The notes: generated by a model not told the origin, from the letters alone. Counted from the first letter of the stretch, positions 1,352 through 18,898 are shown. The stretch is DNA of 64,000 bases from an uncultured Poribacteria bacterium (GCA_951828385.1 OX639973.1:2407200-2471199); one strand, 5' to 3'. Numbers and translations: made by a program.

Positions 1352-1356
1352 TATGG

Positions 1357-1515
1357 TTGTCAGTTGTCAGTTCGGTTTTTCTGCGAAAAACCTTTCAGTT
1401 GTCAGTTAACATTCTGTGGCAGTAACAAGGTTTGGACCCGCCACAAGACATCCGTTAACCGAACACTGAAGACCGAAAACCATTCCTCTGATAACTGATA
1501 ACCGATAACTGATAA
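1357..1515. repeat. Heptameric GTTRTCA tandem arrays: GTTGTCA x2 at 1357, TCAGTTGTCAGTT at 1395, and CTGATAA x4 (inverse orientation) at 1488
   Basis: Direct 7-bp periodicity is visible in the spacer between the two permease genes. Confidence 0.5.
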
Positions 1516-1526
1516 CTATTCAAACT

Positions 1527-2756: not shown

Positions 2757-2757
2757 G

Positions 2758-3459
2758 ATGGAACAGACTGAGAAAACGGATGTCATTATCACAGAAGGTG
2801 TAACAAGGGTTTATGCAGCGGATGGGGTTCCTGTCAACGCGCTGAATGGGATCGATTTAACCATCCAATCGGGAGAATTTACTGCGCTCGTGGGTCCCTC
2901 TGGTTCCGGTAAAACAACTTTTCTCAATATTATTTCTGGCTTGGACGCGCCCACAGACGGAAAAGTGTGGTTGGCTGGCAAAGTGCTTTCAGAGATGAGT
3001 GGCAACGAACTCTCTGACTTTCGACGCGATAATATCGGGTTCATTTTTCAGGCTTATAACCTAATTCCGGTGTTGACAGTCGAGGAAAACGTTGAATACA
3101 TCATGCTCTTAGCAGGTGTCCCTAAGGCGGAACGACACGAACGGGTTATTGCAATGCTCCAAGCTGTCGGGTTAAAAGGGGTCGCTGACCGTACACCGAC
3201 GCAGCTTTCAGGTGGACAGCAGCAGCGTGTCGCTATTGCGCGTGCGATGGTCTCTGAACCGCAGATTATCCTCGCCGATGAACCGACCGCGAACCTCGAC
3301 TCGAAAACGGGTGCTGATCTGCTTGAGATGATGCGCCGCCTCAACACGGGAACCGGCATGACGTTCATCTTCTCAACACACGATCCGATGGTGATGGAGG
3401 GTGCGACGCGTCTGATTACACTTCGCGATGGACGGGTAGATACTGATGAAACGAAGTAA
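2758..3459 (+). CDS. ABC transporter ATP-binding protein (LolD/MacB-type)
   Basis: Walker A GPSGSGKTT, signature LSGGQQQRVAIARA, Walker B ILADEPTANLD and the H-loop STHD. The start is ATG at 2758, 2 nt after the permease stop. Confidence 0.85.
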   Translation: MEQTEKTDVIITEGVTRVYAADGVPVNALNGIDLTIQSGEFTALVGPSGSGKTTFLNIISGLDAPTDGKVWLAGKVLSEMSGNELSDFRRDNIGFIFQAYNLIPVLTVEENVEYIMLLAGVPKAERHERVIAMLQAVGLKGVADRTPTQLSGGQQQRVAIARAMVSEPQIILADEPTANLDSKTGADLLEMMRRLNTGTGMTFIFSTHDPMVMEGATRLITLRDGRVDTDETK

Positions 3460-3460
3460 T

Positions 3461-3517
3461 AGTTGTCAGTTATCAGTTTTAATAGTTTTCAGTTTTCGGT
3501 TATCAGTTGCCAGTTAA
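3461..3517. repeat. Heptameric array of seven units: GTTGTCA GTTATCA GTTTTAA.. GTTTTCA GTTTTCG GTTATCA GTTGCCA
   Basis: The 7-bp period is visible immediately after the ATPase stop. It is followed by the direct repeat tctgatgagaata x2 overlapping the next start codon. Confidence 0.5.
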
Positions 3518-3548
3518 GAGAGATAAAAATTTCTGATGAGAATATCTG

Positions 3549-4769
3549 ATGAGAATAATCCTGGTACTTGTCATCTATTTAATGACAACACCGCTTGTAG
3601 GGACGGCCGATGCTGAGTTTCAAGCCGGTGGTTACTACAAAAACTTTTCTACTGTATTCAACTCACCGCTCCCAGACGCATCTATGGCGGGGATCGTCGT
3701 CAACCGGTTACGCCTGAATCTCTCCCACACACCAACCGACACACTTTCGTTTGCTCTCGCCTATGATTTTACGCCGCGCGTTCAAGACCCTTTACTCTTT
3801 TCCGAATCTCCGTTTGCTGTCGGTGTCGCTTCATCTCGTTACCGGGTTGTAGATTTTGACGCACGGATCTATCCGAGTACGGATGAAGCAACGGGCAGTG
3901 TCGGCGTCTATCACAACCTTGATCGTGCTGCTGTTCAGTTCAGTACCGATTTTGCAGACTTCTCTATCGGTAGGGACGCGATTGCTTGGGGCAGTGCTCG
4001 GATCATAAATCCAACCGATATTATTGCGCCATATACTTACGATCAGTTGGACACGGAAGACCGCGTTGGCGTAGATGCAGTTCGTGTCCGTATTCCGGTC
4101 GGTGTGATGGGTGAGGTGGATACCGGATACATCTTTGGCAACAACTTCGATTTTGATAAAAGTGCTATCTTTCTCCGAACACAATTGAACGCCGCAGAGA
4201 CAGATTTTTCAATTTTACTGTTGGAATTTCAGAGGGATCTGCTTATCGGTTTCGATGTGGCTCGCGGCATTGGCGGCGCAGGGTTCTGGTTAGAAACGGC
4301 TTATGTCTTTGTTGAACCGTTTGATGATGAACCCGACACATCAGATAATTATCTGCGAACCTCTGTCGGTTTGGACTATAGCTTCGGTGGAGAGACGTAC
4401 GCCTTTATTGAATATCATTTCAATAGCGCGGGTGCGACGAAACCGGAAAATTATCTTACTAACTTAGAGCAATCGGCGTATACCCGTGGCGGTGTTTATC
4501 TGCTGGGTCGGCACTATCTCGCCCCCGGATTTACTCGTCAACTGACACCGTTGGTTAGCTTCAGCGGACAGATGCTGTTTAACCTATCCGACCCGTCAAC
4601 TTGGGTTGCACCGCAAGTTGCCTATAACATCGCCGAGGATATTCACCTCTCTGTCGGCGGTTTCGTCAGCATCGGCAAGCGACCTAAAAATGGCGAATCC
4701 TCCGAATTTCAATCGGAATTTGGCAGTTATCCAAATCTTTTCTTTTCCTCGTTTCGCGTCTATTTCTGA
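3549..4769 (+). CDS. Putative outer-membrane beta-barrel protein (secreted)
   Basis: N-terminal signal peptide, alternating amphipathic beta-strand-like segments, and a C-terminal ...FRVYF ending in Phe as in OMPs. It is co-directional with the ABC exporter genes. Confidence 0.4.
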   Translation: MRIILVLVIYLMTTPLVGTADAEFQAGGYYKNFSTVFNSPLPDASMAGIVVNRLRLNLSHTPTDTLSFALAYDFTPRVQDPLLFSESPFAVGVASSRYRVVDFDARIYPSTDEATGSVGVYHNLDRAAVQFSTDFADFSIGRDAIAWGSARIINPTDIIAPYTYDQLDTEDRVGVDAVRVRIPVGVMGEVDTGYIFGNNFDFDKSAIFLRTQLNAAETDFSILLLEFQRDLLIGFDVARGIGGAGFWLETAYVFVEPFDDEPDTSDNYLRTSVGLDYSFGGETYAFIEYHFNSAGATKPENYLTNLEQSAYTRGGVYLLGRHYLAPGFTRQLTPLVSFSGQMLFNLSDPSTWVAPQVAYNIAEDIHLSVGGFVSIGKRPKNGESSEFQSEFGSYPNLFFSSFRVYF

Positions 4770-6226: not shown

Positions 6227-7855
6227 ATGAGAAAACTATTTGTTTATTCCGTAATTGTTTTTACGATGATTGTTTATACGTCACATGCCGATATGACCTC
6301 GGATCTACAAGCCTATCCGAGTAGTGAATATCTCGTCGGTGTGTCAGAAGGACCAGGAGCTGTCGAATCCCTTATGAATCAGGCAGAAGATCAGTTATCC
6401 AAGAAGATCTTCGACAAGATTAGATATGTTATTAACGAAAACGAAAACGATTGGCTTGCCTACAATCGTGTCCGTGAACACTACAGCACAGTGATCCAGA
6501 GTTCCATAAAATCTAAACTCAAAGGGATTCGGGAATATTATCCCTCCACGGCACCGGATGCCTATGTTATTGTCTACGTTAAGCGTGATATGCTCCAGCA
6601 GATTTATACCGACGAAGCTGCGGATTTACGCCAAGAGATTAACGACCTTCTTCATAAAGCACAGGTCATAGAAAACGCTGGCGATTTATCAGATGCAGCC
6701 AAGATATATCTGAGCACGTACCGATTGTATGAAGCGTTAAAAGAAGCAGAGCTCATTCAATTGGGCGCAGCGTACATAACACCACCTAAGGCATTTTCTA
6801 AATTGTCGGACGCAGCAGGTGGCGTTGCCAAAGCGGATTTGATGATGTCGCATAAAGAAGTCGTTACGAAAGTAGAAAAAATCGCGCCTCAAACGATAAT
6901 TAATATCAACGATGTTGCGCGTGTCACTGCCTATCAATTCCAGCAGCAAAGCAGCGACTGGGGAACTAAGGTGAAGGCGGAGGAACTTACCTACGACAGT
7001 TTCAATGTTGTGAGTCCTTCTTCAACGCCTTTTTTGGAGGCACTTACAAGTGAGTTGAAGTGGCATCGCTCGCTTCCGATGCGAGGGTTCCAACCACTTC
7101 GAGAGGTACATAAGGCTGAATCTCAAGACGATCATTTGCAATTCTTCGGTGGATATTGGGCAGACGGCGACAAAATTACACTACGCACCACGCTACGCGA
7201 TATCGCAACGGGCGAATTTAAGGCGGCGGCTGTTGTACGATTTAGTGAGAGTCAACGCCGAGACAAGGACATCGCGCTAAAACCCGGAAATCTTGAGCAA
7301 TTCGATCAAGATTGGAAACTTTTTAATCCACTTGAAGAGACACTCAGTCTTGAAGAGGTGCAGCCGGTAGAGGAGGAATCACAAACTACAGAGGTTTCGC
7401 CCGCAGAAGTTCCGGCTGAAGAATCCATCGTCAATCCGAAAGTTTTTGTCAACGACGGATTAACTGTTGAAATCGCGACGGATAGGGGTACAGGACCGGT
7501 GGTTTATTCCGAAGGCGAAACAATGACAGTCTTCGCACGTGCGGACCAAGAGGTTTATATCCGTTTAATCTATATCCTTGCGGATGGAAAGCGGACACTA
7601 CTGTTAGACAACCATCATATTAGTTCCGAAATGACTAACCAAAGTTTGGAGATCGGAAAATTTGTGTGTACACCGCCATTTGGCGCGGAGCAGTTGCATG
7701 TTTATGCTAAGCGCGAAGCGTTCCCGGATTTGGCACCGGGGCAAACGTATGAGGAGGGTGGGTACGTCTACCTAACGCCAACACGCGGTTTTCAACCGTT
7801 CAAACCACAGCCTGAAGGGTCTGCACATATTTCTATTACCACTCTACCAAAGTAG
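6227..7855 (+). CDS. Hypothetical secreted protein
   Basis: 542-aa ORF with an N-terminal signal peptide (VIVFTMIVYTSHA). A reasonable RBS, gagaggag, lies upstream. Confidence 0.4.
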   Translation: MRKLFVYSVIVFTMIVYTSHADMTSDLQAYPSSEYLVGVSEGPGAVESLMNQAEDQLSKKIFDKIRYVINENENDWLAYNRVREHYSTVIQSSIKSKLKGIREYYPSTAPDAYVIVYVKRDMLQQIYTDEAADLRQEINDLLHKAQVIENAGDLSDAAKIYLSTYRLYEALKEAELIQLGAAYITPPKAFSKLSDAAGGVAKADLMMSHKEVVTKVEKIAPQTIININDVARVTAYQFQQQSSDWGTKVKAEELTYDSFNVVSPSSTPFLEALTSELKWHRSLPMRGFQPLREVHKAESQDDHLQFFGGYWADGDKITLRTTLRDIATGEFKAAAVVRFSESQRRDKDIALKPGNLEQFDQDWKLFNPLEETLSLEEVQPVEEESQTTEVSPAEVPAEESIVNPKVFVNDGLTVEIATDRGTGPVVYSEGETMTVFARADQEVYIRLIYILADGKRTLLLDNHHISSEMTNQSLEIGKFVCTPPFGAEQLHVYAKREAFPDLAPGQTYEEGGYVYLTPTRGFQPFKPQPEGSAHISITTLPK

Positions 7856-7941
7856 GGCTTACATCTATAAAAGTAAAGTTCCTTATGATATGGGGACGCT
7901 TTGCCATATCCCTTGGCACGCTTCAAAGCTCTGAAAGTAGA

Positions 7942-9453
7942 ATGTTTATGGTCTCTACAAGAAAAATATCTTTATTTTTATTTTTTAGTTTCCTTTGTTT
8001 TGTGATCGTATCCATCGCCTCTACCGAGTTATTTTCGCAACGCGGTATGAGTGTTACTATCCGCACAGAGAACGGGGAGGAGTTTGCTCTCTATAAGGAT
8101 TCTTATGCGCTTATTATTGGAAATGGCGCATATCCAGTGAAAAACGGTTGGAATCCGCTTCCGGGTGCAGTAGAAGATGTCAAAGAAGTCGCAGAAGTCC
8201 TTGAACACCATGGGTTCAATGTGACGCTGAAAATAGATGTAACGAAGACTGAGTTTAATCAAGTATTTTCGGAGTTTATCTATGAATTTGGTAAAAATAA
8301 GGATAATAGACTTCTGTTTTATTATGCAGGGCATGGTTACACGACAAAAGCAGCAACAGGTGAGGACCTTGGCTACCTTGTGATGCTTGATACGCCGAGT
8401 CCTGAGAATGCTGCAGCATTTGACCTCTATAGTGTCGATATGGTCAAGTTCGTATCGGATTCTAAGAAGATTCACGCCAAGCATGTTCTTTTTATGTTTG
8501 ATAGCTGCTTCTCAGGCACAGTGCTAAACCTGAGAAATCGAGTTACTCCCTCCCATATTACGGATCGGATTAAGAATCCTGTGCGCCAGTTCATCACAGC
8601 CGGTCGTGCGGATGAACCCGTGCCAGATAGGAGCGAATTTAAGAAAGCATTTTTGAATATCCTTGAAGGGCGCGTTGAAGAACCGACACCAGATGGTTAC
8701 CTGACAGGTGTTGAGTTGGGAGATTACCTCTATCGAACAGTCCCAAAGTTCTCTCAAGGACAACACCCGCAACATGGAAAGATTCACGATCAGCAATTGA
8801 ACACTGGTGATTTTGTGTTTGTGCTTTCTCAGAACAATAGTGAGGATAATGGCGTTGAGTTAGATACGATAGCGATGTTAAACATAACCAGTAACCCGAG
8901 TGGCGCAATGGTTTATGCTGATGGCATCCTAATCGGGATAACACCGTTAGATAGTTACGAGATTGACACAGGTCCTCGTCTTGAGAAACAGGTAAATATA
9001 GGTTTAGAACTTTCAGGCTACAAGAGCCGTGTTAAAAAAATAACGTTAAAAGGTGGTCAACAGTTCCCGTGGAACGTGCCTTTAGAGAAAATGACGAGCA
9101 AGCCTGCTGAATCCATAACTGATGTTCAGAGGGATGAAGAAACTGCAACGTATCTCTCGCTGGTGTCTGATAATCCACATATTCTTGTACCGATAAACGA
9201 TATGAGGGAATGGAGTGGGTGGAATGGTTGGTTCTGGGAAAAAGTGAAAGGTGAACAACCTACTGAACGGCCTTCTATTTTTTCAGGCAATTATGCGGAT
9301 AGATTTGACCATTGGATGTACTCACATGCCGAAAGCCATATCGTCTATGATATAAGCGGTGGTGAATACTCTCAATTTGATGGGAATTTAATTACACCCA
9401 GCTCATGTATAGAAACCATTGAACTCATATTTCTAGTAGTGCTTCAATGTTGA
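7942..9453 (+). CDS. Caspase-domain (peptidase C14) protein. This is the 5' part of a caspase–NPCBM-like–FGE-sulfatase gene truncated by a stop inside the 127-bp tandem repeat.
   Basis: Signal peptide, then caspase His/Cys dyad motifs YYAGHGY and FMFDSCFSG. It is 90% identical to paralogs at 11043 and 14675 over the caspase region. The C-terminal HIVYDISGGEYSQFDGNLI matches the N-half of an NPCBM-like module. The stop TGA at 9451 lies in repeat copy 1. Confidence 0.6.
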   Translation: MFMVSTRKISLFLFFSFLCFVIVSIASTELFSQRGMSVTIRTENGEEFALYKDSYALIIGNGAYPVKNGWNPLPGAVEDVKEVAEVLEHHGFNVTLKIDVTKTEFNQVFSEFIYEFGKNKDNRLLFYYAGHGYTTKAATGEDLGYLVMLDTPSPENAAAFDLYSVDMVKFVSDSKKIHAKHVLFMFDSCFSGTVLNLRNRVTPSHITDRIKNPVRQFITAGRADEPVPDRSEFKKAFLNILEGRVEEPTPDGYLTGVELGDYLYRTVPKFSQGQHPQHGKIHDQQLNTGDFVFVLSQNNSEDNGVELDTIAMLNITSNPSGAMVYADGILIGITPLDSYEIDTGPRLEKQVNIGLELSGYKSRVKKITLKGGQQFPWNVPLEKMTSKPAESITDVQRDEETATYLSLVSDNPHILVPINDMREWSGWNGWFWEKVKGEQPTERPSIFSGNYADRFDHWMYSHAESHIVYDISGGEYSQFDGNLITPSSCIETIELIFLVVLQC

Positions 9454-9813
9454 GTTTATAGGTAATCCTGTTCGTAGTAGGGCAATTCATTGCCCGTTGC
9501 TGACGTGCGATAAATCGCACTACTACGAACCTACCCTCAGATTCAAAGTTGAAAGACTACTAGTAGTGCTTCAATGTTGAGTTTATAGGTAATCCTGTTC
9601 GTAGTAGGGCAATTCATTGCCCGTTGCTGACGTGCGATAAATCGCACTACTACGAACCTACCCTCAGATTCAAAGTTGAAAGACTACTAGTAGTGCTTCA
9701 ATGTTGAGTTTATAGGTAATCCTGTTCGTAGTAGGGCAATTCATTGCCCGTTGCTGACGTGCGATAAATCGCACTACTACGAACCTACCCTCAGATTCAA
9801 AGTTGAAAGACTA
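9433..9813. repeat. Tandem repeat of 3 x 127 bp with nested palindromes (gttcgtagtag/ctactacgaac arms; gggcaattcattgccc; tgcgataaatcgca)
   Basis: Units start at 9433, 9560 and 9687 and are identical by eye. The total of 381 bp equals 127 codons. The repeat lies between the two halves of the split gene. Confidence 0.9.
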
Positions 9814-10899
9814 CTAGTGGATAACAAAGTTGTCTATAACTCAGGTCGGGTTAGGGTTTTTGAACCTATGCGTGTTGCATTCAACATACCTGCTGACGCC
9901 AAAACTCTGACGATCCGCGTAACAGATGGCGGCGATGGGGGCAGATGCGATCACTGGATACTTGGAGACGCACGTCTACTGGAAACTCGGCAACCTATCT
10001 CCGCTAAACCAAAACCGGATGTCCCACAGACAACCATTGAAAATGACATCACCATAAACCAGGAAGCGCGATCGCCCTCGCCAAATATGCCACAAACGGT
10101 TGTTGGAAAGGATGGGGCGGAAATGGTGTTAATTCCGGCAGGCGACTTCCAGATGGGGAGCGGGGCCGGTCGCCTTTACAATGCCGCGACAATTCCTGTC
10201 CATACTGTCTATATTGATGCATTTTACATTGACAAATACGAGGTGACCGTTGGGCGATACAACCAATTTGTCCGTGCCACTGGACATCGTCCGTTGCCGG
10301 ATTGGATGTCTAAATATTCTCCAACAGACCAGCATCCGGTTGTCGGTGTAACTTGGGACGACACAATAGCATACGCGAAATGGGCAGGCAAACGACTTCC
10401 AACAGAAGCGGAATGGGAAAAAGCGGCAAGGGGTGGTTTGATAGGAAGAGACCACCCGTGGGGTAATGCTCCGCTGGACGGTACACAGTGCAATTTTGCC
10501 GACAAAAGTCTGTGGGAAGTTTGGAACGAAGAACGGAATGATGAAGATAATGATGCGGATAAAAGTATTAATGATGGTTACGCGTACACCGCCCCGATTG
10601 GCAGTTACCCACCGAACGGATATGGTTTATACGATATGGCAGGGAATGTGGCAGAATGGTGCTTTGATGCGTATGATGAAAATTTTTACGCCAATTCTCC
10701 TCGGCGGAACCCAGTTGCAGATATACTTATACGAGATGGTGAAAATAACATAGTCGCTATTAACAAATTGCGCGTTGTGCGAGGCGGTTCCTGGTACCAT
10801 TGGCCGGTGGCAGTGTGGATTGCCTGTCGTACCCCGAATTCGCCTACGCTGCGTCACAGAAACGGCGGTTTTCGCTGTGTGAAGTCGGTAACGCCCTGA
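9751..10899 (+). CDS. 3' fragment of the split gene: NPCBM-like C-half plus an FGE-sulfatase (formylglycine-generating-enzyme-like) domain. It may be translated from an internal ATG.
   Basis: Same reading frame as 7885..9453. VVYNSGRVRVFEP...VTDGGDGGRCDHWILGDARLLE matches the C-half of the NPCBM-like domain of ORF 16736. The FGE motif is YAKWAGKRLPTEAEWEKAARGG...YGLYDMAGNVAEWC...RGGSW. Confidence 0.5.
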   Translation: MLTCDKSHYYEPTLRFKVERLLVDNKVVYNSGRVRVFEPMRVAFNIPADAKTLTIRVTDGGDGGRCDHWILGDARLLETRQPISAKPKPDVPQTTIENDITINQEARSPSPNMPQTVVGKDGAEMVLIPAGDFQMGSGAGRLYNAATIPVHTVYIDAFYIDKYEVTVGRYNQFVRATGHRPLPDWMSKYSPTDQHPVVGVTWDDTIAYAKWAGKRLPTEAEWEKAARGGLIGRDHPWGNAPLDGTQCNFADKSLWEVWNEERNDEDNDADKSINDGYAYTAPIGSYPPNGYGLYDMAGNVAEWCFDAYDENFYANSPRRNPVADILIRDGENNIVAINKLRVVRGGSWYHWPVAVWIACRTPNSPTLRHRNGGFRCVKSVTP

Positions 10900-11042
10900 A
10901 TCTTTGGACCTTTGTCTGTCGCGTCTGATGCCCAAACAAACTGGAAACTAATGCATTTTTAGGATTGGTAAATCTTTAGCCCTCGTTAGTCGCGAGTTCC
11001 TTTCAACTAAAGCCTATAAGCGCAAATTGCATATAGTACCTT

Positions 11043-13175
11043 ATGAAAAAAATACCTTTATTTTTATTTTTTTATATTCTTTGCGGTGTAACCATGCTAA
11101 TTGTTGCAACCGAGCTGTTCTCGCAACGCGGTATGAGCGTTACTGTTCTCACAAAGAACGGGGAGGAATTTAACCTCTATAAAGATTCATACGCTTTGGT
11201 TATTGGAAATGGAGCATACCCCGTAAAGAACGGTTGGAATCCGCTCCCCGGTGCGATAAAGGATGTCAAAGAAGTCGCAGAAGTTCTTGAAAACCAAGGA
11301 TTTAATGTCACCCTGAAAATAGATGTGACAAAAGCTGAGTTTAACAAAGCGTTTTCGGAGTTCATCCATAAATCGGGGAAAGATAAAGATAACCGACTCC
11401 TGTTTTACTACGCGGGTCACGGTTACACGACGAAGGCGGCAACAGGTGAGGATCTCGGCTACCTCGTTATGCTCGATACACCGAGTCCTGAGAACACTGT
11501 CGAGTTTGATCTCTATAGTGTGGATATGGTCAAATTTGTGTCGGATTCCAAGAAGATTCATGCCAAACATGTCCTATTTATGTTCGATAGCTGCTTCTCA
11601 GGGACAGTGTTGAACCTGAGAAATCGTGTTACGCCCTCCCATATTACGGATCGGATTAAGAATCCTGTGCGCCAGTTCATCACAGCCGGTCGTGCGGATG
11701 AACCCGTGCCGGATAGGAGTGAGTTCAAGAAGGCGTTTTTGAACATCCTTGAAGGGCGCGTTGAAGAACCGACACCAGATGGTTACCTGACAGGTGTTGA
11801 GTTAGGAGATTACCTCTACCGAACGGTCCCAAAGTTCTCACGAGGACAACACCCACAACATGGGAAAATCCACGACCAGCAGCTCAATACAGGTGATTTT
11901 GTGTTTGTGCTTCCTCAAAACGATCAGAGCGGTAGTGAGGATACCGGTATTGAGTTGAACACGATAGCAACGTTGGACATAACCAGCACACCGAGTGGCG
12001 CAACGGTCTATGTTGATAGTATCGCAATCGGCATAACCCCCATTAAAGACTATCAAATTGATACCGGTATCCGTCTTGAAAAGCAGGTGAATGTCGGGTT
12101 GGAACTTTCAGGCTATAAGAGTCGTGTTAAGAAAATGACACTGAAAGGTGGTCAAGAGTTCCCTTGGGACGTATCTTTAGAAAAAATGGCCACACAACCC
12201 CTATTGCCGAAACCAAAGTCCGATATACAGGAAACAATAGTTGAGAAAGATGTTGATGTCAATGAGACGGAACCGGAGGAAATGACAAAAGAACCGGTGT
12301 CGCCAAAACAAAAGCCAAGTGTGCCAGAGATAATAGTTGAAGAAGATGTCAGCATCAATAAAAGAGAGCGTCTACCATCTACAGATTTGCCGCAGAGGAT
12401 TGTAGGCAAAGACGGTGCTGAAATGGTATTGATCCCGGCTGGGGACTTCCAGATGGGAAGCAACCATACTGGCGATTCTAATGAAAAGCCTGTGCATACG
12501 GTTTACGTTGATGCATTCTATATGGACATTCACGAAGTGACAGTTGGACAATATTATCAATTTACTGTTGCCACTGGACATCCCGCACCATCATACTCGC
12601 TTTCTCCATTTTCTCCGACAGATCGACATCCAATGGTCTATGTGAGTTGGCACGACGCGATGGCATACGCGAAATGGGCGGGTAAACGTCTACCGACAGA
12701 AGCAGAGTGGGAGAAAGCCGCACGCGGTGGCTATATTGGTCAGAAATATCCGTGGGGTAATGGTCCACCGGATGGGACCCAGTGTAATTTTGCGGATAAA
12801 AGCGGGGCGAACTCAGGCAGGTGGGAAAATTGGGATAAGAGTGCTGATGATGGTTACGTGTACACTGCTCCCGTCGGCAGTTATCCACCGAACGGATATG
12901 GTTTGTATGATATGGCAGGTAATGTATGGGAGTGGTGCTTTGATGCCTACGATGCGAATTTCTATGCAAGTTCTCCACCTCGGAATCCGATTGCAGGCAT
13001 CATTGTAACAAATATGACCGATAATTCAATAACTGTGAATGAATCTCGTGTGTTACGAGGCGGTTCTTGGACTCCTCATCCTCAAAATGTGCGTTCTGCA
13101 CACCGATGGTCATACGGAGCACATTCAGTGAGCTTCTCTGTTGGTTTCCGTTGTGTGAAACCAGTAACGCCTTGA
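11043..13175 (+). CDS. Caspase (C14) – FGE-sulfatase fusion protein, secreted (intact paralog)
   Basis: Signal peptide, caspase motifs AGHGY and DSCFSG, a Pro/Glu/Lys-rich linker, and a C-terminal FGE-sulfatase domain (RLPTEAEWEKAARGG, GNVWEWC, RGGSW). Confidence 0.8.
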   Translation: MKKIPLFLFFYILCGVTMLIVATELFSQRGMSVTVLTKNGEEFNLYKDSYALVIGNGAYPVKNGWNPLPGAIKDVKEVAEVLENQGFNVTLKIDVTKAEFNKAFSEFIHKSGKDKDNRLLFYYAGHGYTTKAATGEDLGYLVMLDTPSPENTVEFDLYSVDMVKFVSDSKKIHAKHVLFMFDSCFSGTVLNLRNRVTPSHITDRIKNPVRQFITAGRADEPVPDRSEFKKAFLNILEGRVEEPTPDGYLTGVELGDYLYRTVPKFSRGQHPQHGKIHDQQLNTGDFVFVLPQNDQSGSEDTGIELNTIATLDITSTPSGATVYVDSIAIGITPIKDYQIDTGIRLEKQVNVGLELSGYKSRVKKMTLKGGQEFPWDVSLEKMATQPLLPKPKSDIQETIVEKDVDVNETEPEEMTKEPVSPKQKPSVPEIIVEEDVSINKRERLPSTDLPQRIVGKDGAEMVLIPAGDFQMGSNHTGDSNEKPVHTVYVDAFYMDIHEVTVGQYYQFTVATGHPAPSYSLSPFSPTDRHPMVYVSWHDAMAYAKWAGKRLPTEAEWEKAARGGYIGQKYPWGNGPPDGTQCNFADKSGANSGRWENWDKSADDGYVYTAPVGSYPPNGYGLYDMAGNVWEWCFDAYDANFYASSPPRNPIAGIIVTNMTDNSITVNESRVLRGGSWTPHPQNVRSAHRWSYGAHSVSFSVGFRCVKPVTP

Positions 13176-13341
13176 ACTTTTTTACCTTTGTCTGATCCGC
13201 CTGATGCTCAAACAATTTGGAAACTGATGCATTTTCAGGATTGGTGAATCTTTAGTCTTCGTAGGTCGCGAGTTCCTTTCAACTAAAGCCTATAAGCACA
13301 AACTGCGTATAATATCCAATGAAAAAAATACCTTTACTGAT

Positions 13342-14676
13342 ATTTCTCAAAAGTTATTGTAAAGCAATGATTATCAGGGTTCTTTTGGTATTATTGTATG
13401 AAAATGCGTTATGAAGTCCGTAAGCGTCTGTCTTTCTCCAGTGAGTTGAAGTTGTATTTGATGAAAAGTGCGTCGTTCTGAGATGCTCATTTGTAGCAAC
13501 ATCAGATAACTCATCACTTTTATACCGAGGCTCACATACGCCCCTTGTCTGCTTTCGAGGCTCATGGCAGAGACGTGGAGGTTCGATTTGAAGTGCCGCC
13601 AAAACTGTTCAATACCGTGGTGTTGAGACCAAATCCTGAGAGCCTCAGAGGTGCGTAGGGGTTTTCCAAAGACTAAAAGGGTTCGTATCTTGCCTCTATC
13701 TCGGAAAAATAGGACGACACATTCCCCGAAAGTTGGACTTTCTGCTTTGAGGCGACAGGCGGGTTTATCACAGCCCCATTGATCCGCAGCCAGCGCCACG
13801 CGTCTTTTATGAACCGAAAGTTTCGCCTTTGTATCAGCGATAGTCATGACGTAGTTATTTTTTCCGTGAATCAATATAGAGGTAAACCCCAACTCCGATA
13901 AAGCCTCAACAAGTTTACGGCTCCCATACCATGAATCGAAGGTGATTGGATATTTTCTGATGTCTATGCCGTGGGTATCAAAGAACGCTAAGACTTCTTG
14001 GATCATGGTGATAACGAGAGTAGGTTTATCTGTGTTGCCGCGTCCTTGTTTACTGACGAGACGCATATCTAAGGGGATCACGCGATCTCCGCATTTCAGT
14101 GTGATGCCTAAGAGGTTCTGACACCAGATAGGCGTATTGTGTTTTTTCGAGTAGTAGTTTGAACAGTAAGATAACGTCTCGCCTTCACGCGGGAGATTGC
14201 TATCATCAATACTGACGGTGATACACCGCCGCGATTGTGTTGAAGCACTCTTACTTTCAGTGTCTTTGATGAAATCAACTGCCATCGCACATCCGAGCCG
14301 GAGATTCAAACATTTCGAGTGATAAAGGCTCAGGTTTCCAAGACTGCGATAAAGACGTGCTTTGGGAAGTTTCAAAGCATCGGCGACTTGATTCGGATTG
14401 TAAAGTCCAAAAAGATGGCAAACACAGAGCAGAAGTAGCGTCTCAACGATTTGCTGCCGCATCCGCTGAAAGTAAGAAGAAAGAAGGTCTTGAAAAAAGA
14501 TTGTAGATTTGATAAGGTGATCCTGCATGAGATGGCCTCCTAAAGGTTGTAGTTATCTCTTAGGATGCCATCTCATGCGCTAAAAATCAAGAAACTTTTT
14601 CAAAACCATCGCATTTTCACTTGGCTACACCTGCGATCTCTTGATTATTATTACCTCCTTGATAGATTTGAGAAAT
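13342..14676 (-). mobile_element. IS element of about 1.3 kb (IS701/IS4-like) inserted into codons 7-8 of the third caspase–FGE paralog
   Basis: The ends atttctcaaa... and ...tttgagaaat are imperfect inverted repeats. Upstream, 13176-13341 duplicates the promoter region and ATGAAAAAAATACC start of paralog 2. The flanks read through in frame (…ctg at|g cca gct…). Confidence 0.6.
13374..14528 (-). CDS. DDE transposase (IS701/IS4 superfamily-like)
   Basis: VSIDDSNLPREGE (DDT-like first Asp), FDSWYGS (second Asp), a downstream ...SLESRQG...K signature, and a length of 384 aa. Confidence 0.55.
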   Translation of the reverse strand: MQDHLIKSTIFFQDLLSSYFQRMRQQIVETLLLLCVCHLFGLYNPNQVADALKLPKARLYRSLGNLSLYHSKCLNLRLGCAMAVDFIKDTESKSASTQSRRCITVSIDDSNLPREGETLSYCSNYYSKKHNTPIWCQNLLGITLKCGDRVIPLDMRLVSKQGRGNTDKPTLVITMIQEVLAFFDTHGIDIRKYPITFDSWYGSRKLVEALSELGFTSILIHGKNNYVMTIADTKAKLSVHKRRVALAADQWGCDKPACRLKAESPTFGECVVLFFRDRGKIRTLLVFGKPLRTSEALRIWSQHHGIEQFWRHFKSNLHVSAMSLESRQGAYVSLGIKVMSYLMLLQMSISERRTFHQIQLQLTGERQTLTDFITHFHTIIPKEP

Positions 14677-16711
14677 GCCAGCTTTATTTCTATTTTTTTG
14701 TATTCTTTGCGGTGTAACCATGCTTATTGCTGCAACCGATTTGTTTTCGCAACGCGGTATGAGTGTTACCGTCCAGACCGAGAGTGGAGAAGAGTTCGGT
14801 CTCTATAAAGACTCCCATGCGCTGATTATTGGAAATGGTGCATATCCCGTGGAGAACGGTTGGAATCCGCTTCCGGGTGCAGTGAAAGATGTTAAAGAAG
14901 TTGCAGAGATCCTTGAACGCCACGGATTCAAAGTAACCCTGAAAATAGATGTGACAAAGACTGAGTTCAATGAGGCATTTTCAGAATTTATCTACGATTT
15001 TGGTAAAGATCCGGACAACCGACTTCTATTTTACTACGCGGGTCACGGTTACACGACGAAGGCGGCAACAGGTGAGGATCTCGGCTACCTCGTCATGCTT
15101 GATACGCCAAGTCCTGAGAACGCCGCCAAGTTTGATCTGTATAGTGTGGATATGGTCAAGTTTGTATCCGACTCCAAGAAGATCCACGCCAAGCATGTGC
15201 TATTTATGTTTGATAGCTGCTTTTCTGGAACGGTGCTCAATCTTAGGAATCGGGTTACACCATCCCACATTACAGATCGAATCAAAAATCCGGTGCGTCA
15301 GTTCATCACAGCAGGTCGTGCCGATGAACCTGTGCCGGATAGGAGTGAGTTCAAGAAGGCGTTTTTGAACATCCTTGAAGGGCGCGTTGAAGAACCGACA
15401 CCAGATGGTTATTTGACAGGTGTCGAGTTAGGGGATTACCTCTACCGAACGGTGCCGAAGTTCTCACGAGGACAACACCCGCAACATGGAAAAATCCACG
15501 ACCAGCAGCTAAACACCGGTGATTTTGTGTTCGTACTTTCTCAAAACGATCAGAATGGTAGCGAGGATAACGGTATTGAGTTGAACACGATAGCGACGTT
15601 GGACATAACCAGCACACCGGCGGGCGCGAAAGTCTACGTTGACGGCAACTGGATTGGTACGACTCCGTTGCGCAGTTATCAATTTGATACGGGTATTCGT
15701 CTTGAAAAACAGGTGAATGTCGGCTTAGAGCTTTCGGGTTACAAAAGTCGTGTTAAGAGAATAACGCTAAAAGGCGGTCAACAGGTCCCGTGGGATGTGC
15801 ATTTAGAAAAGATAGAAAGAAAGCCGATACAACCGAAGCCGAGCGTGCCAGAAACACCTCCTGAGAAAGGTCCGAGTATCAGTGAAGAAAAACTGTTGAT
15901 TTCCCGGAATACGCTACAGACAATAGTTGGAAATGACGGTGCTGAGATGGTACTGATTCCAGCCGGCGAATTTGAGATGGGGCACAATGGTACGGCAATA
16001 ACAAAACCTGTGCACACTGTCTACGTTGATGCATTTTACATCGATAAATACGAGGTCACTGTTAGGCAATACAATCAATTCGTTCGTGCCACTGGACATC
16101 CTCCCTTACCGGATTCAGTATCTAAGTATTCTCCAACAGATCAACACCCCGTTGTCCTTGTGACTTGGGATGATGCGATGGCATACGCGAAGTGGACAGG
16201 AAAAAGACTTCCGACAGAGGCGGAATGGGAGAAAGCGGCGCGCGGTGGTTTAGCAGGAAAACGGCATGCCTGGGGCGATGCTGCGCTGGATGGAACACAG
16301 TGTAACTTTGCAGATAAGAGTTTGAACGAAGTGTGGGAGAAAGAAAGAAAACCAGAAGATAATTGGGCGGATAAAAGTATTGATGATGGTTACACACACG
16401 CTGCTCCTGTCGGTAGTTATCCACCGAATGGATATGGTTTATACGATATGGGGGGGAATGTGGCAGAATGGTGCTTTGATGCGTATGATGAAAATTTTTA
16501 TGCCAATTCTCCGCGTCGCAACCCAATAGCAGATATACTTATAAGAGATGGTGAAAATAATATAGTCGCTATTAATAAATTGCGCGTTTTGCGAGGTGGT
16601 TCTTGGTACTATTCGCAAGGGACAGTGTGGATCGCCAGTCGCCTTGGGATTGATCCCAAAAACGCGGCGAGCAGCCAAGGTTTTCGTTGTGCGAAATCGG
16701 TAGATCCTTAA
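14675..16711 (+). CDS. Caspase (C14) – FGE-sulfatase fusion protein. The N-terminus was rebuilt by the IS insertion, with the ATG lying at the IS junction.
   Basis: MPALFLFFCILCGVTMLIAA retains a hydrophobic leader. Caspase and FGE motifs are as in the paralogs. Confidence 0.7.
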   Translation: MPALFLFFCILCGVTMLIAATDLFSQRGMSVTVQTESGEEFGLYKDSHALIIGNGAYPVENGWNPLPGAVKDVKEVAEILERHGFKVTLKIDVTKTEFNEAFSEFIYDFGKDPDNRLLFYYAGHGYTTKAATGEDLGYLVMLDTPSPENAAKFDLYSVDMVKFVSDSKKIHAKHVLFMFDSCFSGTVLNLRNRVTPSHITDRIKNPVRQFITAGRADEPVPDRSEFKKAFLNILEGRVEEPTPDGYLTGVELGDYLYRTVPKFSRGQHPQHGKIHDQQLNTGDFVFVLSQNDQNGSEDNGIELNTIATLDITSTPAGAKVYVDGNWIGTTPLRSYQFDTGIRLEKQVNVGLELSGYKSRVKRITLKGGQQVPWDVHLEKIERKPIQPKPSVPETPPEKGPSISEEKLLISRNTLQTIVGNDGAEMVLIPAGEFEMGHNGTAITKPVHTVYVDAFYIDKYEVTVRQYNQFVRATGHPPLPDSVSKYSPTDQHPVVLVTWDDAMAYAKWTGKRLPTEAEWEKAARGGLAGKRHAWGDAALDGTQCNFADKSLNEVWEKERKPEDNWADKSIDDGYTHAAPVGSYPPNGYGLYDMGGNVAEWCFDAYDENFYANSPRRNPIADILIRDGENNIVAINKLRVLRGGSWYYSQGTVWIASRLGIDPKNAASSQGFRCAKSVDP

Positions 16712-16735: not shown

Positions 16736-18898
16736 ATGAAACACATTATCATTTTACTTGCCTTAACGCTCCTTGCCTTGAATGCTTATAGTGCCAAAGA
16801 GGACTGTCATAACCTTGCCGGAGCGGGACCACAACCGATCCGAAAAGTCGCCAATGAAAACCTTGGCACTATCAACGACTATGAAACTGTTGTCAAAGAG
16901 GATACACGCGATGGTGTGACCTATCTATCCTTTATCGGTGGTAGCCAGCCCAAACCGAACGCCTGCGGACTCAATCCGAAAAACGCCAGACTCAACTGGA
17001 CAGGTTGGGGCGGTCCTATTGATACCGATAACGCCAGTATCGGTCAAGGTGTTGGGTTTCGTAACGAAATCGTTATTGGTGGTATCTATTTTGAGCGCGG
17101 ACTCGGTACGCATGCGAACGCCAAGATCATCTATAACCTCACTGGCGGCGATTATGTTAAATTTGAAGGGTATATCGGCATGTCAGACGAGACGGATCCA
17201 GATGCTTGTGGTAATGCTGGAAGTTCGATTTTTACTTTTAAGGTTGATGATAAGACAGTTTTTGAATCCGGAACCATCCAGGGCGCGGTTAACGGACTGA
17301 ATGTCCCACCAGTGAGAGTTTCTTTTGATATTCCCCCCAATGCGAAAGAGCTCGAAATCATCATCAATACTACAGAGGACGGAGCCTGTGCTGATCATGC
17401 AACGGTTGCTGATGCTAAACTCCTTGATGCTGATGCTGCAGCCACCACTACAACCCCTGAGACACCGATGACCGTCACGACAAGTAAACGGCTGGTGCGT
17501 GTCATCTATTTCGTGCCACTTAACCAGGCGCGGCAATGGAATTTTGAGGATACGCTTGATATACAACTGAAAGAGGTGCAGCAGATCTACGCTGAGCAGT
17601 TAGAAGAACACGGTTACGGCAGAAAAACTTTTGAAATCGAAACGGACAGCGACGGTAAGGTTGTAGTGCATTTTATCTCTGGTAGACAAAGTGACAAATA
17701 CTATCACACTGACACAATCCGCAAAGTTACTGATGAAATCAAGGCGCGCTTTAATGTTGAGCGCGATGTTTATCTCGTTGCTATTGAAAGCAGTGCAGAA
17801 CTGATTGAAGGAAGCTGCGGTGTCGCGTATTTAGATGGTGGCCCCGCGCTTGTCATATCGGCTGGTGATTGTGTCTCTAGTGATTACGGTGTCCCGTTGA
17901 TTGCGCATGAGCTCGGGCACGCCTTTAACTTAGAACACGATTTCCAGGACGATAGTTATTTTATGTCCTACGGGAGTAGTCGCCGAAAGTTTTCGGCATG
18001 CTCCGCAGCTGCGTTGAGCGTCAGCCCGTTCTTGAATCAAGAAGATCCTTATATCGCGACTGGTAATGGACAGTCTACAATGGAATTGGTTTCAGAACCG
18101 GTCTATCCGGAAAATGGCAGCAGTCATACGCTCCAGTTCAAAGTGGGTGACGCAGAGGGTATTCACATTGTTCACTTTCTTGTACCGCATCGCACTATAG
18201 ATCCGATGACCTCCAGCACAGGGGCAACGGTCTACGATTGCAAGAAACTCAACGATGTTAAAAGCGCGACCGTCTCATTTGAATTGCCGGAATACTTTAT
18301 GACTTTCCGTACCAATAAGGTCCATATCCGCATGTTTGATGTCCAGGGCAGCAGTATCGCGAAGGAGTGGACACTTACTGCTGACAATATAGAACCTATC
18401 ATTGTTGAGAACCACACGGATGTCAATAGCGATGGTGTGGTCAATCTCGTCGATCTTGTGATTGTCGCGTCGCGGTACGGTGAACGTATCACAGGCGATC
18501 CGAACCCGAATCCCGATGTCAATCGCGACGGCATTGTGGACATCAACGACCTTATTCTTATCACAAACGAGATGCCTGTCGGTGTTGCACCTACACAACT
18601 CCCAATCGCTACACAACTTTTTCATAACTACCCCAACCCGTTCAACCCTGAGACGTGGATACCGTATATACTCTCGTACTCCGCCGATGTCTCTATTGAG
18701 ATCCATGCAACCGATGGCAACCTCGTTAGACGCTTGGCAATCGGACAGCAACCGGCAGGCCTCTACGTAAACAAAGCGAATGCCGCCTATTGGGATGGCA
18801 GAAACGCCTTTGGTGAACCTATCGCAAGCGGTCTCTATTTCTATACGCTCATTGCTGGTGATTATGCAGCAACCCGCAAAATGATCATCCGAAGATGA
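16736..18898 (+). CDS. Secreted multidomain zinc metalloprotease: NPCBM-like domain, metzincin-like HELGHAFNLEHD site, dockerin type-I repeat pair, and a T9SS-like C-terminal sorting domain
   Basis: Signal peptide. NPCBM-like segment GTHANAKIIYNLTGGDYVKF...EDGACADHATVADAKLL. HEXXHXXXXXH with downstream Asp. DVNSDGVVNLVDLV...DVNRDGIVDINDLIL. C-terminal NYPNPFNPETWIPY...LYFYTLIAGDYAATRKMIIRR. Confidence 0.6.
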   Translation: MKHIIILLALTLLALNAYSAKEDCHNLAGAGPQPIRKVANENLGTINDYETVVKEDTRDGVTYLSFIGGSQPKPNACGLNPKNARLNWTGWGGPIDTDNASIGQGVGFRNEIVIGGIYFERGLGTHANAKIIYNLTGGDYVKFEGYIGMSDETDPDACGNAGSSIFTFKVDDKTVFESGTIQGAVNGLNVPPVRVSFDIPPNAKELEIIINTTEDGACADHATVADAKLLDADAAATTTTPETPMTVTTSKRLVRVIYFVPLNQARQWNFEDTLDIQLKEVQQIYAEQLEEHGYGRKTFEIETDSDGKVVVHFISGRQSDKYYHTDTIRKVTDEIKARFNVERDVYLVAIESSAELIEGSCGVAYLDGGPALVISAGDCVSSDYGVPLIAHELGHAFNLEHDFQDDSYFMSYGSSRRKFSACSAAALSVSPFLNQEDPYIATGNGQSTMELVSEPVYPENGSSHTLQFKVGDAEGIHIVHFLVPHRTIDPMTSSTGATVYDCKKLNDVKSATVSFELPEYFMTFRTNKVHIRMFDVQGSSIAKEWTLTADNIEPIIVENHTDVNSDGVVNLVDLVIVASRYGERITGDPNPNPDVNRDGIVDINDLILITNEMPVGVAPTQLPIATQLFHNYPNPFNPETWIPYILSYSADVSIEIHATDGNLVRRLAIGQQPAGLYVNKANAAYWDGRNAFGEPIASGLYFYTLIAGDYAATRKMIIRR

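What the first reader, a model, noticed from the sequence alone, without database searches (positions are those of the whole stretch)
7885..16711. Tandem triplicated caspase(C14)–FGE-sulfatase secreted protein family with duplicated promoter blocks
Three consecutive genes share a signal peptide, a caspase domain (AGHGY / DSCFSG dyad), a linker and an FGE-sulfatase/SUMF1-type domain. Paralog 1 is split; paralogs 2 and 3 differ mainly in the linker. The roughly 140-bp upstream block is duplicated with the genes (10900-11042 and 13176-13318). Only paralog 1 has an NPCBM-like module between the caspase and FGE domains. Caspase–FGE fusions are known from cyanobacterial orthocaspases. A secreted tandem array that is being actively remodelled by a repeat and an IS is unusual, and suggests a diversifying extracellular protease/binding family.
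Basis: partly seen in the sequence, partly recalled or inferred. Interest (0 to 1): 0.6.

Follow-up and report, generated by a model that had tools for sequence, protein, structure and literature searches.

The report
Exported caspase–lectin-fold protease gene array
A sponge-symbiont (Poribacteria) genome carries three old tandem copies of an exported caspase-like protease fused to a non-enzymatic binding domain of the FGE fold (FGE = formylglycine-generating enzyme); the architecture is known and widespread but uncharacterised, and here two of the three copies are broken by mobile elements.

Summary
Three + strand paralogs each encode a signal peptide, a Peptidase_C14 domain, a PEGA domain, a linker and an FGE-sulfatase domain. 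The His/Cys motifs YYAGHGY and FDSCFSG are intact in all three. Only paralog 1 carries an NPCBM module.

- Paralog 1 is split by three identical tandem copies of a 122-bp MITE-like element plus a 5-bp CTAGT junction. Removing 381 bp restores the ORF.
- Paralog 3 is cut after codon 6 by a 1,345-bp IS701-like element. The "second promoter block" is paralog 3's own displaced upstream region and start codon.
- Only paralog 2 is intact.
- Paralogs 2 and 3 differ throughout the C-terminal half (FGE domain 63% identical), not mainly in the linker.

The copies are old (dS 0.8–2) and under purifying selection (ω 0.03–0.2). The array, with an upstream secreted DUF4384 protein, is syntenic across sponge-associated Poribacteria. 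Modules have been shuffled between copies.

The FGE domain lacks the catalytic Cys pair. A 24-residue loop at that position is the family's variability hot spot, with no DGR template nearby.

Most likely these are exported orthocaspases, each targeted by a different lectin-fold binding domain. The architecture has been known since 2012. Verdict: new member of a known kind, modest interest.

The parts
6227..7855 (+). Upstream partner gene: a secreted 542-aa protein with a C-terminal DUF4384 domain.
   Evidence: The Pfam DUF4384 hit is below the family cutoff (E 2.5e-5, 24.7 vs 27 bits). The gene sits directly upstream of the array in 7 related loci at 75-94% identity. Homologs at 33-41% identity also lie beside Peptidase_C14 genes. 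DUF4384 is fused to orthocaspases elsewhere (PMC7475262, PMC6426788).
7942..9437 (+). Paralog 1, 5' part. Contains the signal peptide (MFMVSTRKISLFLFF...), the C14 domain (about 8104-8544; His motif 8320-8340, Cys motif 8497-8517), PEGA (8878-9090) and the N-terminal half of NPCBM (from about 9265).
   Evidence: The start codon was chosen by comparison with orthologs. The mechanical ORF starts at 7885.
9433..9818 (+). Three identical tandem copies of a 127-bp unit: a 122-bp MITE-like element with terminal inverted repeats, plus a shared 5-bp CTAGT. The insertion lies in the NPCBM coding region of paralog 1.
   Evidence: TRF reports period 127, 3.0 copies, 100% matches. The units are identical. 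The RNA fold is -55 kcal/mol, z = -8. The empty site ATA TTT CTA GTG GAT is present in ortholog L003_g1. A single copy sits in an intergenic region of an unrelated contig, L077. No Rfam family matches.
9819..10899 (+). Paralog 1, 3' part. Contains the C-terminal half of NPCBM (to about 9978), a linker and the FGE-sulfatase domain (10117-10884).
10900..11042 (+).
   Evidence: It is 83% identical to 13176-13318. It is conserved in L005, L001, L003 and L007. No sigma-70-like site lies in it.
11043..13175 (+). Paralog 2, the only intact copy (710 aa).
- Signal peptide: residues 1-22.
- C14 domain: 11190-11627 (His126 at 11418-11420, Cys184 at 11592-11594).
- PEGA: 11970-12185.
- Disordered linker: 12201-12383.
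- FGE-like domain: 12417-13160.
- Variable loop: 13071-13142.
13176..13336 (+). Native upstream spacer of paralog 3 (13176-13318) plus its original first six codons, ATGAAAAAAATACCTTTA (13319-13336). Both are now separated from the gene by the IS.
   Evidence: The restored 5' end is 96% nt-identical to those of orthologs L003_g3 and L001_g2.
13337..14681 (-). IS701-like insertion sequence, 1,345 bp. Terminal inverted repeats CTGnnATTTCTCAAA; 5-bp target duplication CTTTA (13332-13336 and 14682-14686); transposase gene at 13374-14528.
   Evidence: DDE_Tnp_1 and DDE_5 hits. IS701 NCBIfam hits are below cutoff. It is a single copy in the window.
14687..16711 (+). Paralog 3 from codon 7 onward. 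C14 at 14816-15568, PEGA at 15596-15811, FGE-like domain at 15941-16696. The listed ORF start, the ATG at 14675, lies inside the IS end.
16736..18898 (+). Neighbouring gene, probably not part of the module: NPCBM + reprolysin-like metalloprotease + dockerin + T9SS (type IX secretion) sorting tail.
   Evidence: It is absent at this position in relatives, where glgB follows the array directly. Its NPCBM is only about 38% identical to the paralog-1-type NPCBM.

Best explanation
The locus is a conserved Poribacteria array of exported orthocaspase-type cysteine endopeptidases. Each protein has five parts:
- a Sec signal peptide;
- a caspase-fold protease with an intact His/Cys dyad, and an Asp two residues before the Cys, as in Arg/Lys-specific metacaspases;
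- a PEGA β-sandwich;
- a disordered Pro/Glu/Lys-rich tether, with an NPCBM carbohydrate-binding module in paralog 1;
- a C-terminal FGE-fold (C-type-lectin-like) domain that has lost the two catalytic cysteines, so it acts as a binding module and not as a formylglycine-generating enzyme.

The paralogs keep a nearly identical protease. They differ in the binding domain, above all in a 24-residue loop at the position of the FGE active site, which is also where the variable region of DGR (diversity-generating retroelement) target proteins lies. Each copy is therefore inferred to deliver the same protease to, or have it switched on by, a different envelope or extracellular ligand. The upstream secreted DUF4384 protein is a likely partner or substrate.

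In this genome two copies were recently disrupted: paralog 1 by a tandem triple MITE insertion, paralog 3 by an IS701-like element after codon 6. Only paralog 2 is clearly functional.

Shown: the domains, the export signal, loss of the FGE cysteines, where the variation lies, synteny, and the insertions. Inferred: ligand binding, P1 specificity, targeting, and the role of the partner.
For: - Domains: Pfam hits.
- Structure: the second AF2 model has mean pLDDT 80.6. The caspase, PEGA and FGE domains are confident and residues 387-447 are disordered.
- Fold: Foldseek matches FGE structures with target TM-score 0.72-0.75. It also matches the non-catalytic relatives PvdO, pFGE, TvpA and PorK, and MALT1 paracaspase.
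- Protease residues: His126, Asp182 and Cys184 are invariant in 89 sequences from several phyla.
- Loss of FGE chemistry: the alignment to S. coelicolor FGE puts TPHPQ-- opposite LCHDSYC. Only 1 of 88 relatives has a CxxxxC motif there.
- Where variation lies: entropy is 0.31 bits in the caspase domain, 0.76 in the FGE core and 2.33 in the loop.
- Selection on the loop: N:S in the loop versus the FGE core is 11:1 versus 26:52 (p = 2e-4) for type A, with similar results for type C. Type B (paralog 2) is conserved at 0:3.
- Selection on domains: ω is 0.03-0.05 for the caspase domain and 0.09-0.2 for PEGA and FGE.
- Export: signal-like N-termini in 75 of 85 homologs.
- Conservation: synteny and DUF4384 linkage.
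- Literature: CLec/FGS domains act as binders fused C-terminally to peptidases (PMC7159879, PMC7517822, bioRxiv 10.1101/2023.09.22.558884).
Against: - No biochemical data exist for any member of this architecture, and no ligand or substrate is known.
- The final location (periplasm or beyond the outer membrane) is not determined. There is no lipobox and no T9SS tail.
- The loop hot spot could reflect relaxed constraint, not selection for new specificities. The N:S tests rest on 24 codons, and recombination among the paralogs confounds pairwise estimates.
- Some FGE-fold proteins without the Cys pair are enzymes or enzyme partners (PvdO, EgtB), so a non-FGE catalytic role is not excluded.
- The Pfam C14 hit covers only the p20-like half of the profile in paralogs 1 and 2.
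Confidence: 0.55

Rival explanations
1. The array is an envelope-located conflict (immune-like) system. The lectin-fold domains are germline-encoded sensors for phage or competitor molecules in the periplasm or at the cell surface. Ligand binding activates the caspase, which cleaves a partner such as the DUF4384 protein to trigger a protective or suicidal response.
For: - Caspase plus FGS/CLec domains are recurrent parts of predicted bacterial conflict systems (PMC7159879; bioRxiv 10.1101/2023.09.22.558884).
- The caspase domain matches the NCBIfam 'caspase, EACC1-associated type' family (E 5e-16, below cutoff) and the PADLOC 'caspase' model.
- The variability hot spot lies at the DGR-VR-equivalent loop.
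- Modules are shuffled between tandem copies, and array composition differs between genomes.
Against: - No other defence gene is detected in the neighbours tested.
- The flanking genes are housekeeping: LolCDE-like ABC genes, glgB and glycogen genes.
- Synteny is stable across the clade, which is unlike a typical defence island.
- There is no NTPase, vWA, MoxR or EAD component of the described systems.
- Paralog 2's loop is invariant across three genomes.
Confidence: 0.2
2. These are host-directed or nutrient-acquiring secreted proteases. The lectin-fold and NPCBM modules bind sponge matrix glycans or glycoproteins, and the caspase domain cleaves the attached proteins, for feeding or for modulating the host.
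For: - The source is a sponge-associated Poribacteria lineage.
- The proteins are exported.
- Paralog 1 carries an NPCBM carbohydrate-binding module.
- The adjacent gene encodes a secreted NPCBM-metalloprotease with a T9SS tail.
Against: - The same C14–PEGA–FGE architecture is abundant in Desulfobacterota and other MAGs from phyla that are not known sponge symbionts, such as KSB3 and Fischerbacteria.
- No signal for transport across the outer membrane is recognisable.
- The metalloprotease neighbour is specific to this genome.
- No paper in the library links Poribacteria with such proteins.
Confidence: 0.15
3. The FGE-sulfatase domain is a working enzyme, either an FGE that matures the many Poribacteria sulfatases or another oxidase of the SUMF1/EgtB/PvdO family. 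The caspase domain processes its clients.
For: - The FGE-sulfatase hit is strong (E 1e-62 to 1e-67).
- It is 32-36% identical to solved FGEs.
- Source databases name relatives 'formylglycine-generating enzyme' or 'nonheme iron enzyme'.
- The idea was proposed in PMC3501461.
Against: - Both catalytic, copper-binding cysteines are missing in all three paralogs and in 87 of 88 relatives.
- The active-site loop is the least conserved part of the protein.
- NCBIfam scores are far below the equivalog cutoffs for EgtB, PvdO, SenA and GldK.
Confidence: 0.05
4. In this genome the array is decaying: hits by mobile elements show relaxed selection, and the genes no longer matter.
For: Two of the three copies are interrupted. 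The window carries other mobile elements: MITE relatives and a TnpB gene.
Against: - Both interrupted ORFs are otherwise intact, with no frameshifts or stops after the elements are removed.
- The MITE copies are identical, so the events are very recent.
- Paralog 2 is intact and 92% identical to its ortholog, with ω 0.04-0.14 across its folded domains and 0.32 in the linker.
Confidence: 0.05

Closest known systems
[quoted passage not shown] 2012, PMC3501461; Klemenčič et al. 2019, PMC6426788)
   Same: [quoted passage not shown] FGE-sulfatase was the fifth most common partner domain in the 2012 survey (33 of 671 sequences).
   Different: Here a PEGA domain and a disordered tether lie between the two domains, and one paralog type carries an NPCBM insertion. 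The genes form a syntenic tandem array with an upstream DUF4384 gene in Poribacteria. Those surveys did not report the loss of the FGE cysteines or the location of the variable loop.
DGR variable proteins with orthocaspase N-termini and CLec/FGE-fold C-termini in cyanobacteria, and their non-DGR paralogs (PMC7517822). Also TvpA of Treponema denticola (PDB 2y3c).
   Same: A peptidase sits N-terminal to a lectin-fold domain whose extreme C-terminal loop is the variable, presumed ligand-binding part. Foldseek matches TvpA (target TM-score 0.70).
   Different: No template repeat was found in the window or within ±10 kb of the orthologs. No reverse transcriptase was found among the nine window ORFs of 320-475 aa tested that were not already assigned to the array or its flanks. 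Loop types are stable across genomes. Variation comes from old paralogy, recombination and ordinary substitution.
Formylglycine-generating enzyme (human SUMF1, S. coelicolor and T. curvata FGE)
   Same: Same fold, 32-36% identity, and the conserved core motifs (RLPTEAEWE, GNVWEW, GFRC).
   Different: The catalytic Cys pair is absent, and the region between GGSW and GFRC is hypervariable. In this respect the domain resembles the non-catalytic relatives pFGE/SUMF2, PvdO and PorK/GldK.
MALT1 paracaspase (caspase-like domain followed by an Ig domain)
   Same: A caspase-fold domain directly followed by a β-sandwich. MALT1 is the best sequence and structure match for the N-terminal half among solved structures.
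   Different: The match is very distant (16-17% identity). MALT1 is a cytosolic eukaryotic signalling protein with death and Ig domains and has no lectin-fold domain.

Membership tests
Peptidase family C14 (clan CD), orthocaspase type | Significant match to the Peptidase_C14 profile | tested here: met
   PF00656 scores 66-72 bits against a cutoff of 21.4 in all three paralogs.
Peptidase family C14 (clan CD), orthocaspase type | Catalytic His–Cys dyad in the conserved motifs | tested here: met
   YYAGHGY and FDSCFSG are present in all three copies. His126 and Cys184 are invariant in 89 diverse homologs.
Peptidase family C14 (clan CD), orthocaspase type | No separate p10 domain (the criterion used in PMC6426788 to separate orthocaspases from metacaspases) | tested here: inconclusive
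   The Pfam match covers profile positions 3-143 of 233 in paralogs 1 and 2, and extends to 175 in paralog 3. The AF2 model shows one compact domain up to about residue 290. No p10-specific model was available.
Peptidase family C14 (clan CD), orthocaspase type | Peptidase activity, with cleavage after Arg/Lys | not testable with these tools
   The only support is the conserved Asp182 at position -2 from the Cys. Its role as the S1 acidic residue of metacaspases is recalled from the literature and was not tested.
Formylglycine-generating enzyme (functional FGE/SUMF1) | FGE-sulfatase profile match and FGE fold | tested here: met
   PF03781 scores 207-227 bits. Foldseek gives target TM-scores of 0.72-0.75 to FGE structures.
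Formylglycine-generating enzyme (functional FGE/SUMF1) | The two catalytic, copper-binding cysteines (the LCHDSYC motif in S. coelicolor FGE; C336/C341 in the human enzyme) | tested here: not met
   The alignment to 6muj/2q17 shows TPHPQ plus a gap at that position in paralog 2. Paralogs 1 and 3 also lack the pair. Only 1 of 88 relatives has CxxxxC there.
DGR (diversity-generating retroelement) variable protein | C-terminal lectin/FGE-fold domain with its variable region at the extreme C-terminus | tested here: met
   Entropy is 2.33 bits in residues 677-700 against 0.76 in the FGE core. TvpA is a structural match.
DGR (diversity-generating retroelement) variable protein | A cognate template repeat and a reverse transcriptase | tested here: not met
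   There is no second copy of any 3' end in the 64-kb window or in the ±10 kb loci of orthologs. No RT domain was found in nine otherwise unassigned window ORFs of 320-475 aa. A remote DGR elsewhere in the genome cannot be excluded.
Known anti-phage defence systems (PADLOC) | Match to the component models of a defined system | tested here: not met
   Only a generic 'caspase' model hit for paralog 2. None of the four neighbours tested matched anything.

The most novel reading that the evidence does not exclude
The array is a germline-encoded, recombining repertoire of lectin-fold receptors fused to a constant caspase effector and exported to the cell envelope of an animal symbiont. It would be a DGR-independent counterpart of the hypervariable CLec sensors of multicellular bacteria. 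Cassette shuffling between tandem copies and positive selection on the 24-residue loop would supply new specificities for recognising phage, competitors or host molecules outside the cytoplasm.
Probability: 0.15. Interest if true: 0.6.

Novelty: new member of a known kind. Interest (0 to 1): 0.3.

Why it matters
Caspase–FGE-sulfatase fusions are among the commonest multidomain bacterial caspase homologs, yet none has a known substrate, ligand or role.

This locus gives a clean natural comparison. The protease is nearly constant and there are at least four or five binding-loop types. The FGE cysteines are clearly lost and a secreted DUF4384 partner is conserved. Together these argue that automatic annotations such as 'formylglycine-generating enzyme' mislead for this family.

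The locus also suggests simple experiments, loop swaps and ligand screens, that could assign a function to thousands of proteins.

For sponge-symbiont biology it adds an exported protease family that varies between otherwise syntenic genomes. The disruptions by a MITE array and an IS are ordinary genome dynamics.

Tried and rejected
- First AF2 run: a shallow alignment (all sequences ≥72% identical) gave pLDDT 36 and was discarded. A second run with a diverse alignment succeeded.
- Foldseek against afdb50 was unavailable.
- Rfam on the MITE array gave only sub-threshold microRNA-like hairpin hits, so it matches no known RNA family or ribozyme.
- DGR hypothesis: no template repeat in the window or the orthologous loci, and no RT among the nine otherwise unassigned mid-sized ORFs tested. 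Loop types are stable across genomes. DGR is rejected as a local mechanism.
- Promoter claim: the sigma-70 scan is at chance level and finds no site in the duplicated block. There is only a weak conserved hairpin at 10982-10996.
- Recent gene conversion as the reason for caspase conservation: rejected for this genome, because dS between paralogs in the caspase domain is 0.8-1.3. Within-genome homogenisation does appear in other genomes, for example 94% between L001_g2 and L001_g3.
- Recent origin of the paralog-1 NPCBM from the neighbouring metalloprotease gene: rejected, since the two are only about 38% identical.
- PADLOC and NCBIfam gave no system-level or equivalog assignment.
- The IS has no other copy in the window or in the fetched loci.
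- Literature searches linking Poribacteria with caspase or formylglycine found nothing relevant.


Full report
**1. What is in the sequence**

Between 7885 and 16711 there are three + strand genes of one family, plus one − strand transposase gene. Pfam finds, in each family member:
- Peptidase_C14 (E 2e-18 to 6e-20);
- a PEGA β-sandwich (E 1e-9 to 1e-11);
- an FGE-sulfatase domain (E 9e-62 to 3e-67).

ORF 9751-10899 also carries the C-terminal half of an NPCBM module. The motifs YYAGHGY and FDSCFSG are present in all three copies.

The copies are not assembly duplicates. Their best-conserved 300 nt are only 79-81% identical, and synonymous divergence between them is 0.8-2.

**2. Why paralog 1 is split**

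Positions 9433-9818 hold three identical head-to-tail copies of a 127-bp unit.
- The unit is a 122-bp element with terminal inverted repeats (CTAGTAGTGCTTCAATG… / …CAAAGTTGAAAGACTACTAG).
- It has a strongly folding core (−55 kcal/mol, z = −8).
- Adjacent units share a 5-bp CTAGT.

Deleting 381 bp leaves a single CTAGT and restores one uninterrupted ORF (877 aa from the mechanical start, 858 aa from the likely start at 7942). That ORF has a complete NPCBM hit.

The ortholog L003_g1 has exactly the empty site, ATA TTT CTA GTG GAT. The same element occurs once, in an intergenic region, on an unrelated metagenome contig. Diverged partial relatives lie at 35774-35839 and 50-92 of the window. No Rfam family matches.

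This is a MITE-like mobile element that has recently formed a tandem triplet inside the gene. Whether the triplet is exactly as assembled cannot be checked here.

**3. Paralog 3 and the 'second promoter block'**

The sequence after paralog 2's stop codon (13176-13318) matches the spacer upstream of paralog 2 at 83%. It runs straight into ATGAAAAAAATACCTTTA (13319-13336), the same start as paralog 2.

At 13337 a 1,345-bp element begins. It has:
- inverted ends CTGnnATTTCTCAAA;
- a 5-bp CTTTA duplication on both sides;
- a DDE transposase most similar to IS701 models.

Joining 13319-13336 to 14687-16711 gives a 680-aa protein starting MKKIPLFLFFCILCG. Its 5' end is 96% nt-identical to those of orthologs.

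So the IS cut paralog 3 after codon 6 and separated it from its upstream region. The ATG at 14675 listed as the ORF start lies inside the IS end. Only paralog 2 (11043-13175) is intact.

**4. The spacer**

The 143-bp block is the array's normal intergenic spacer. It is conserved in related genomes: 87% over 139 bp in L005, and both ends are conserved in L001 and L003.

A sigma-70 scan finds no site in it and no excess of sites in the region (27 found versus 22 ± 4.6 expected). 'Promoter' therefore remains unverified.

**5. Source and conservation**

The closest genomes are all Candidatus Poribacteria MAGs, mostly from sponges.

In seven related loci the order is: secreted 542-aa DUF4384 protein, then two or three C14–PEGA–(NPCBM)–FGE genes. 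glgB follows wherever the fetched DNA extends far enough to show it (L001-L004).

The window differs from these loci in three ways: the MITE, the IS, and an extra gene (16736-18898). That gene encodes NPCBM + reprolysin-like metalloprotease + dockerin + T9SS tail, inserted before glgB.

The architecture is very common:
- 2,710 and 4,266 hits in two searches, spanning Desulfobacterota, KSB3, Bacteroidota and others;
- 11,980 cluster representatives at E ≤ 1e-30 for either domain.

Tandem pairs also occur in a Thermodesulfobacteriota MAG.

**6. How the family evolves**

Amino-acid identity between the window's paralogs:

| Region | Identity |
|---|---|
| Caspase | 91-93% |
| PEGA | 71-75% |
| Linker | 44-47% (with indels) |
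| FGE domain | 63-78% |

ω is 0.03-0.05 in the caspase domain and 0.09-0.2 in PEGA and FGE. The family is old and under purifying selection.

Nearest neighbours differ by domain. Paralog 1's FGE domain is 96% nt-identical to that of a non-NPCBM gene in L003. Paralog 2's PEGA is 98% identical to L001_g2, but its FGE domain is 89% identical to L001_g3. Modules have therefore been exchanged between copies.

Different genomes hold different combinations of at least four or five FGE types.

Across 84 close homologs, column entropy is:
- 0.31 bits in the caspase domain;
- 0.76 in the FGE core;
- 2.33 in the 24 residues between GGSW and GFRC.

In that loop, non-synonymous changes dominate for types A and C (for example N:S 11:1 versus 26:52 in the core, p = 2e-4). 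The type B loop, carried by the intact paralog 2, is unchanged across three genomes. These tests use few codons and ignore recombination, so they are indicative only.

**7. What the domains can do**

His126, Asp182 and Cys184 are invariant in 89 sequences from several phyla. The motifs are of the metacaspase/orthocaspase kind. The role of the Asp two residues before the Cys as an S1 residue for basic P1 residues is recalled from the metacaspase literature and was not tested.

The FGE-like domain aligns with solved FGEs at 32-36% identity. Opposite the catalytic LCHDSYC of S. coelicolor FGE it has TPHPQ plus a gap. Paralogs 1 and 3 also lack the Cys pair, as do 87 of 88 relatives. It therefore cannot work as an FGE.

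The missing active site is exactly the hypervariable loop. The same position is the variable region of DGR-diversified lectin-fold proteins such as TvpA, which is a structural match (PMC7159879).

The second AF2 model (mean pLDDT 80.6) shows three confident domains and a disordered tether at residues 387-447.

N-terminal signal-like segments are present in 75 of 85 homologs, many with textbook cleavage sites. There is no lipobox and no T9SS tail, so the final location beyond the inner membrane is unknown.

**8. Partner**

The 542-aa upstream protein is found only in this kind of context. Homologs at 33-41% identity still sit beside exported C14 genes with other accessory domains. DUF4384 is a known fusion partner of orthocaspases (PMC7475262, PMC6426788). 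A functional link is likely, but its nature is unknown.

**9. Interpretation**

The best-supported model is an array of exported orthocaspases. Each is tethered to a different non-catalytic lectin-fold binding domain that targets or gates the same protease.

Rivals differ mainly in the biological role:
- An envelope conflict or immune sensor. This is supported by analogy with predicted caspase–FGS conflict systems. It is weakened by the housekeeping context, stable synteny and lack of other system components.
- Host- or food-directed proteolysis. This is supported by the sponge association and the NPCBM module. It is weakened by the architecture's abundance in MAGs from phyla that are not known sponge symbionts.
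- True FGE or other enzymatic activity. This is contradicted by the missing cysteines.

A local DGR was tested for and not found.

**10. Novelty**

The C14–FGE-sulfatase fusion was described in 2012 as one of the commonest bacterial caspase architectures (PMC3501461). Orthocaspase–CLec proteins and their paralogs are discussed for cyanobacteria (PMC7517822).

What this analysis adds:
- the exact anatomy of the locus;
- the two mobile-element disruptions;
- the demonstration that the FGE domain is non-catalytic;
- the location of the variability hot spot;
- evidence of module shuffling;
- the DUF4384 linkage.

This is a new member of a known but functionally uncharacterised kind, and interest is modest.

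Noticed in passing
window 9433-9818; also 35774-35839 (−), 50-92 (−); L077 755-885: A 122-bp MITE-like element with terminal inverted repeats and a conserved three-way hairpin core (GTTCGTAGTAG-GGCAATTCATTGCCC-…-GCGATAAATCGC-ACTACTACGAAC). It forms an exact 3× tandem array that shares a CTAGT between units. This suggests repeated insertion into its own regenerated target site, or unequal exchange. It matches no Rfam family.
   Followed up: partly
window 13337-14681: The right end of the IS701-like element supplies an in-frame ATG (14675) that replaces MKKIPL with MPA at the start of paralog 3's signal peptide. A truncated-signal version could therefore still be translated if transcription reads out of the IS.
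   Followed up: partly
window 16736-18898: A 720-aa protein with NPCBM, a reprolysin-like Zn-metalloprotease (HELGH), a dockerin and a T9SS type-A sorting tail. It starts 24 bp after paralog 3 and is absent at this position in related genomes, where glgB follows the array. It looks like a lineage-specific insertion.
   Followed up: partly
L080 1-17617; L079 6412-12190: Distant homologs of the DUF4384 protein lie in larger clusters with several exported C14 proteases carrying other accessory domains (CARDB/Big_7, SH3_3, Glucodextran_B). The clusters also hold a stand-alone FGE-sulfatase protein, an LPP20-like protein and a Peptidase_M10–TPR protein. This hints at a broader, undescribed 'exported caspase + DUF4384' gene neighbourhood.
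   Followed up: no
window 52226-53338: A TnpB / IS605 OrfB-like gene (OrfB_IS605 and Cas12f1-like TNB domains). It is another mobile-element gene in the window.
   Followed up: no
window 11-4769: Two MacB/LolC-like permease genes and an ABC ATPase gene, then a 406-aa signal-peptide protein with no Pfam match that ends in Phe (possibly an outer-membrane β-barrel). These are conserved upstream of the array in L001.
   Followed up: no
alignment A4 (relatives from other phyla), tail of the FGE domain: Many non-Poribacteria relatives have tails such as GGSWYDDAGGCRSADRGRDGPGHRDYRLGFRL. These look like typical DGR variable regions, so some members of this architecture elsewhere may be true DGR targets.
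   Followed up: no
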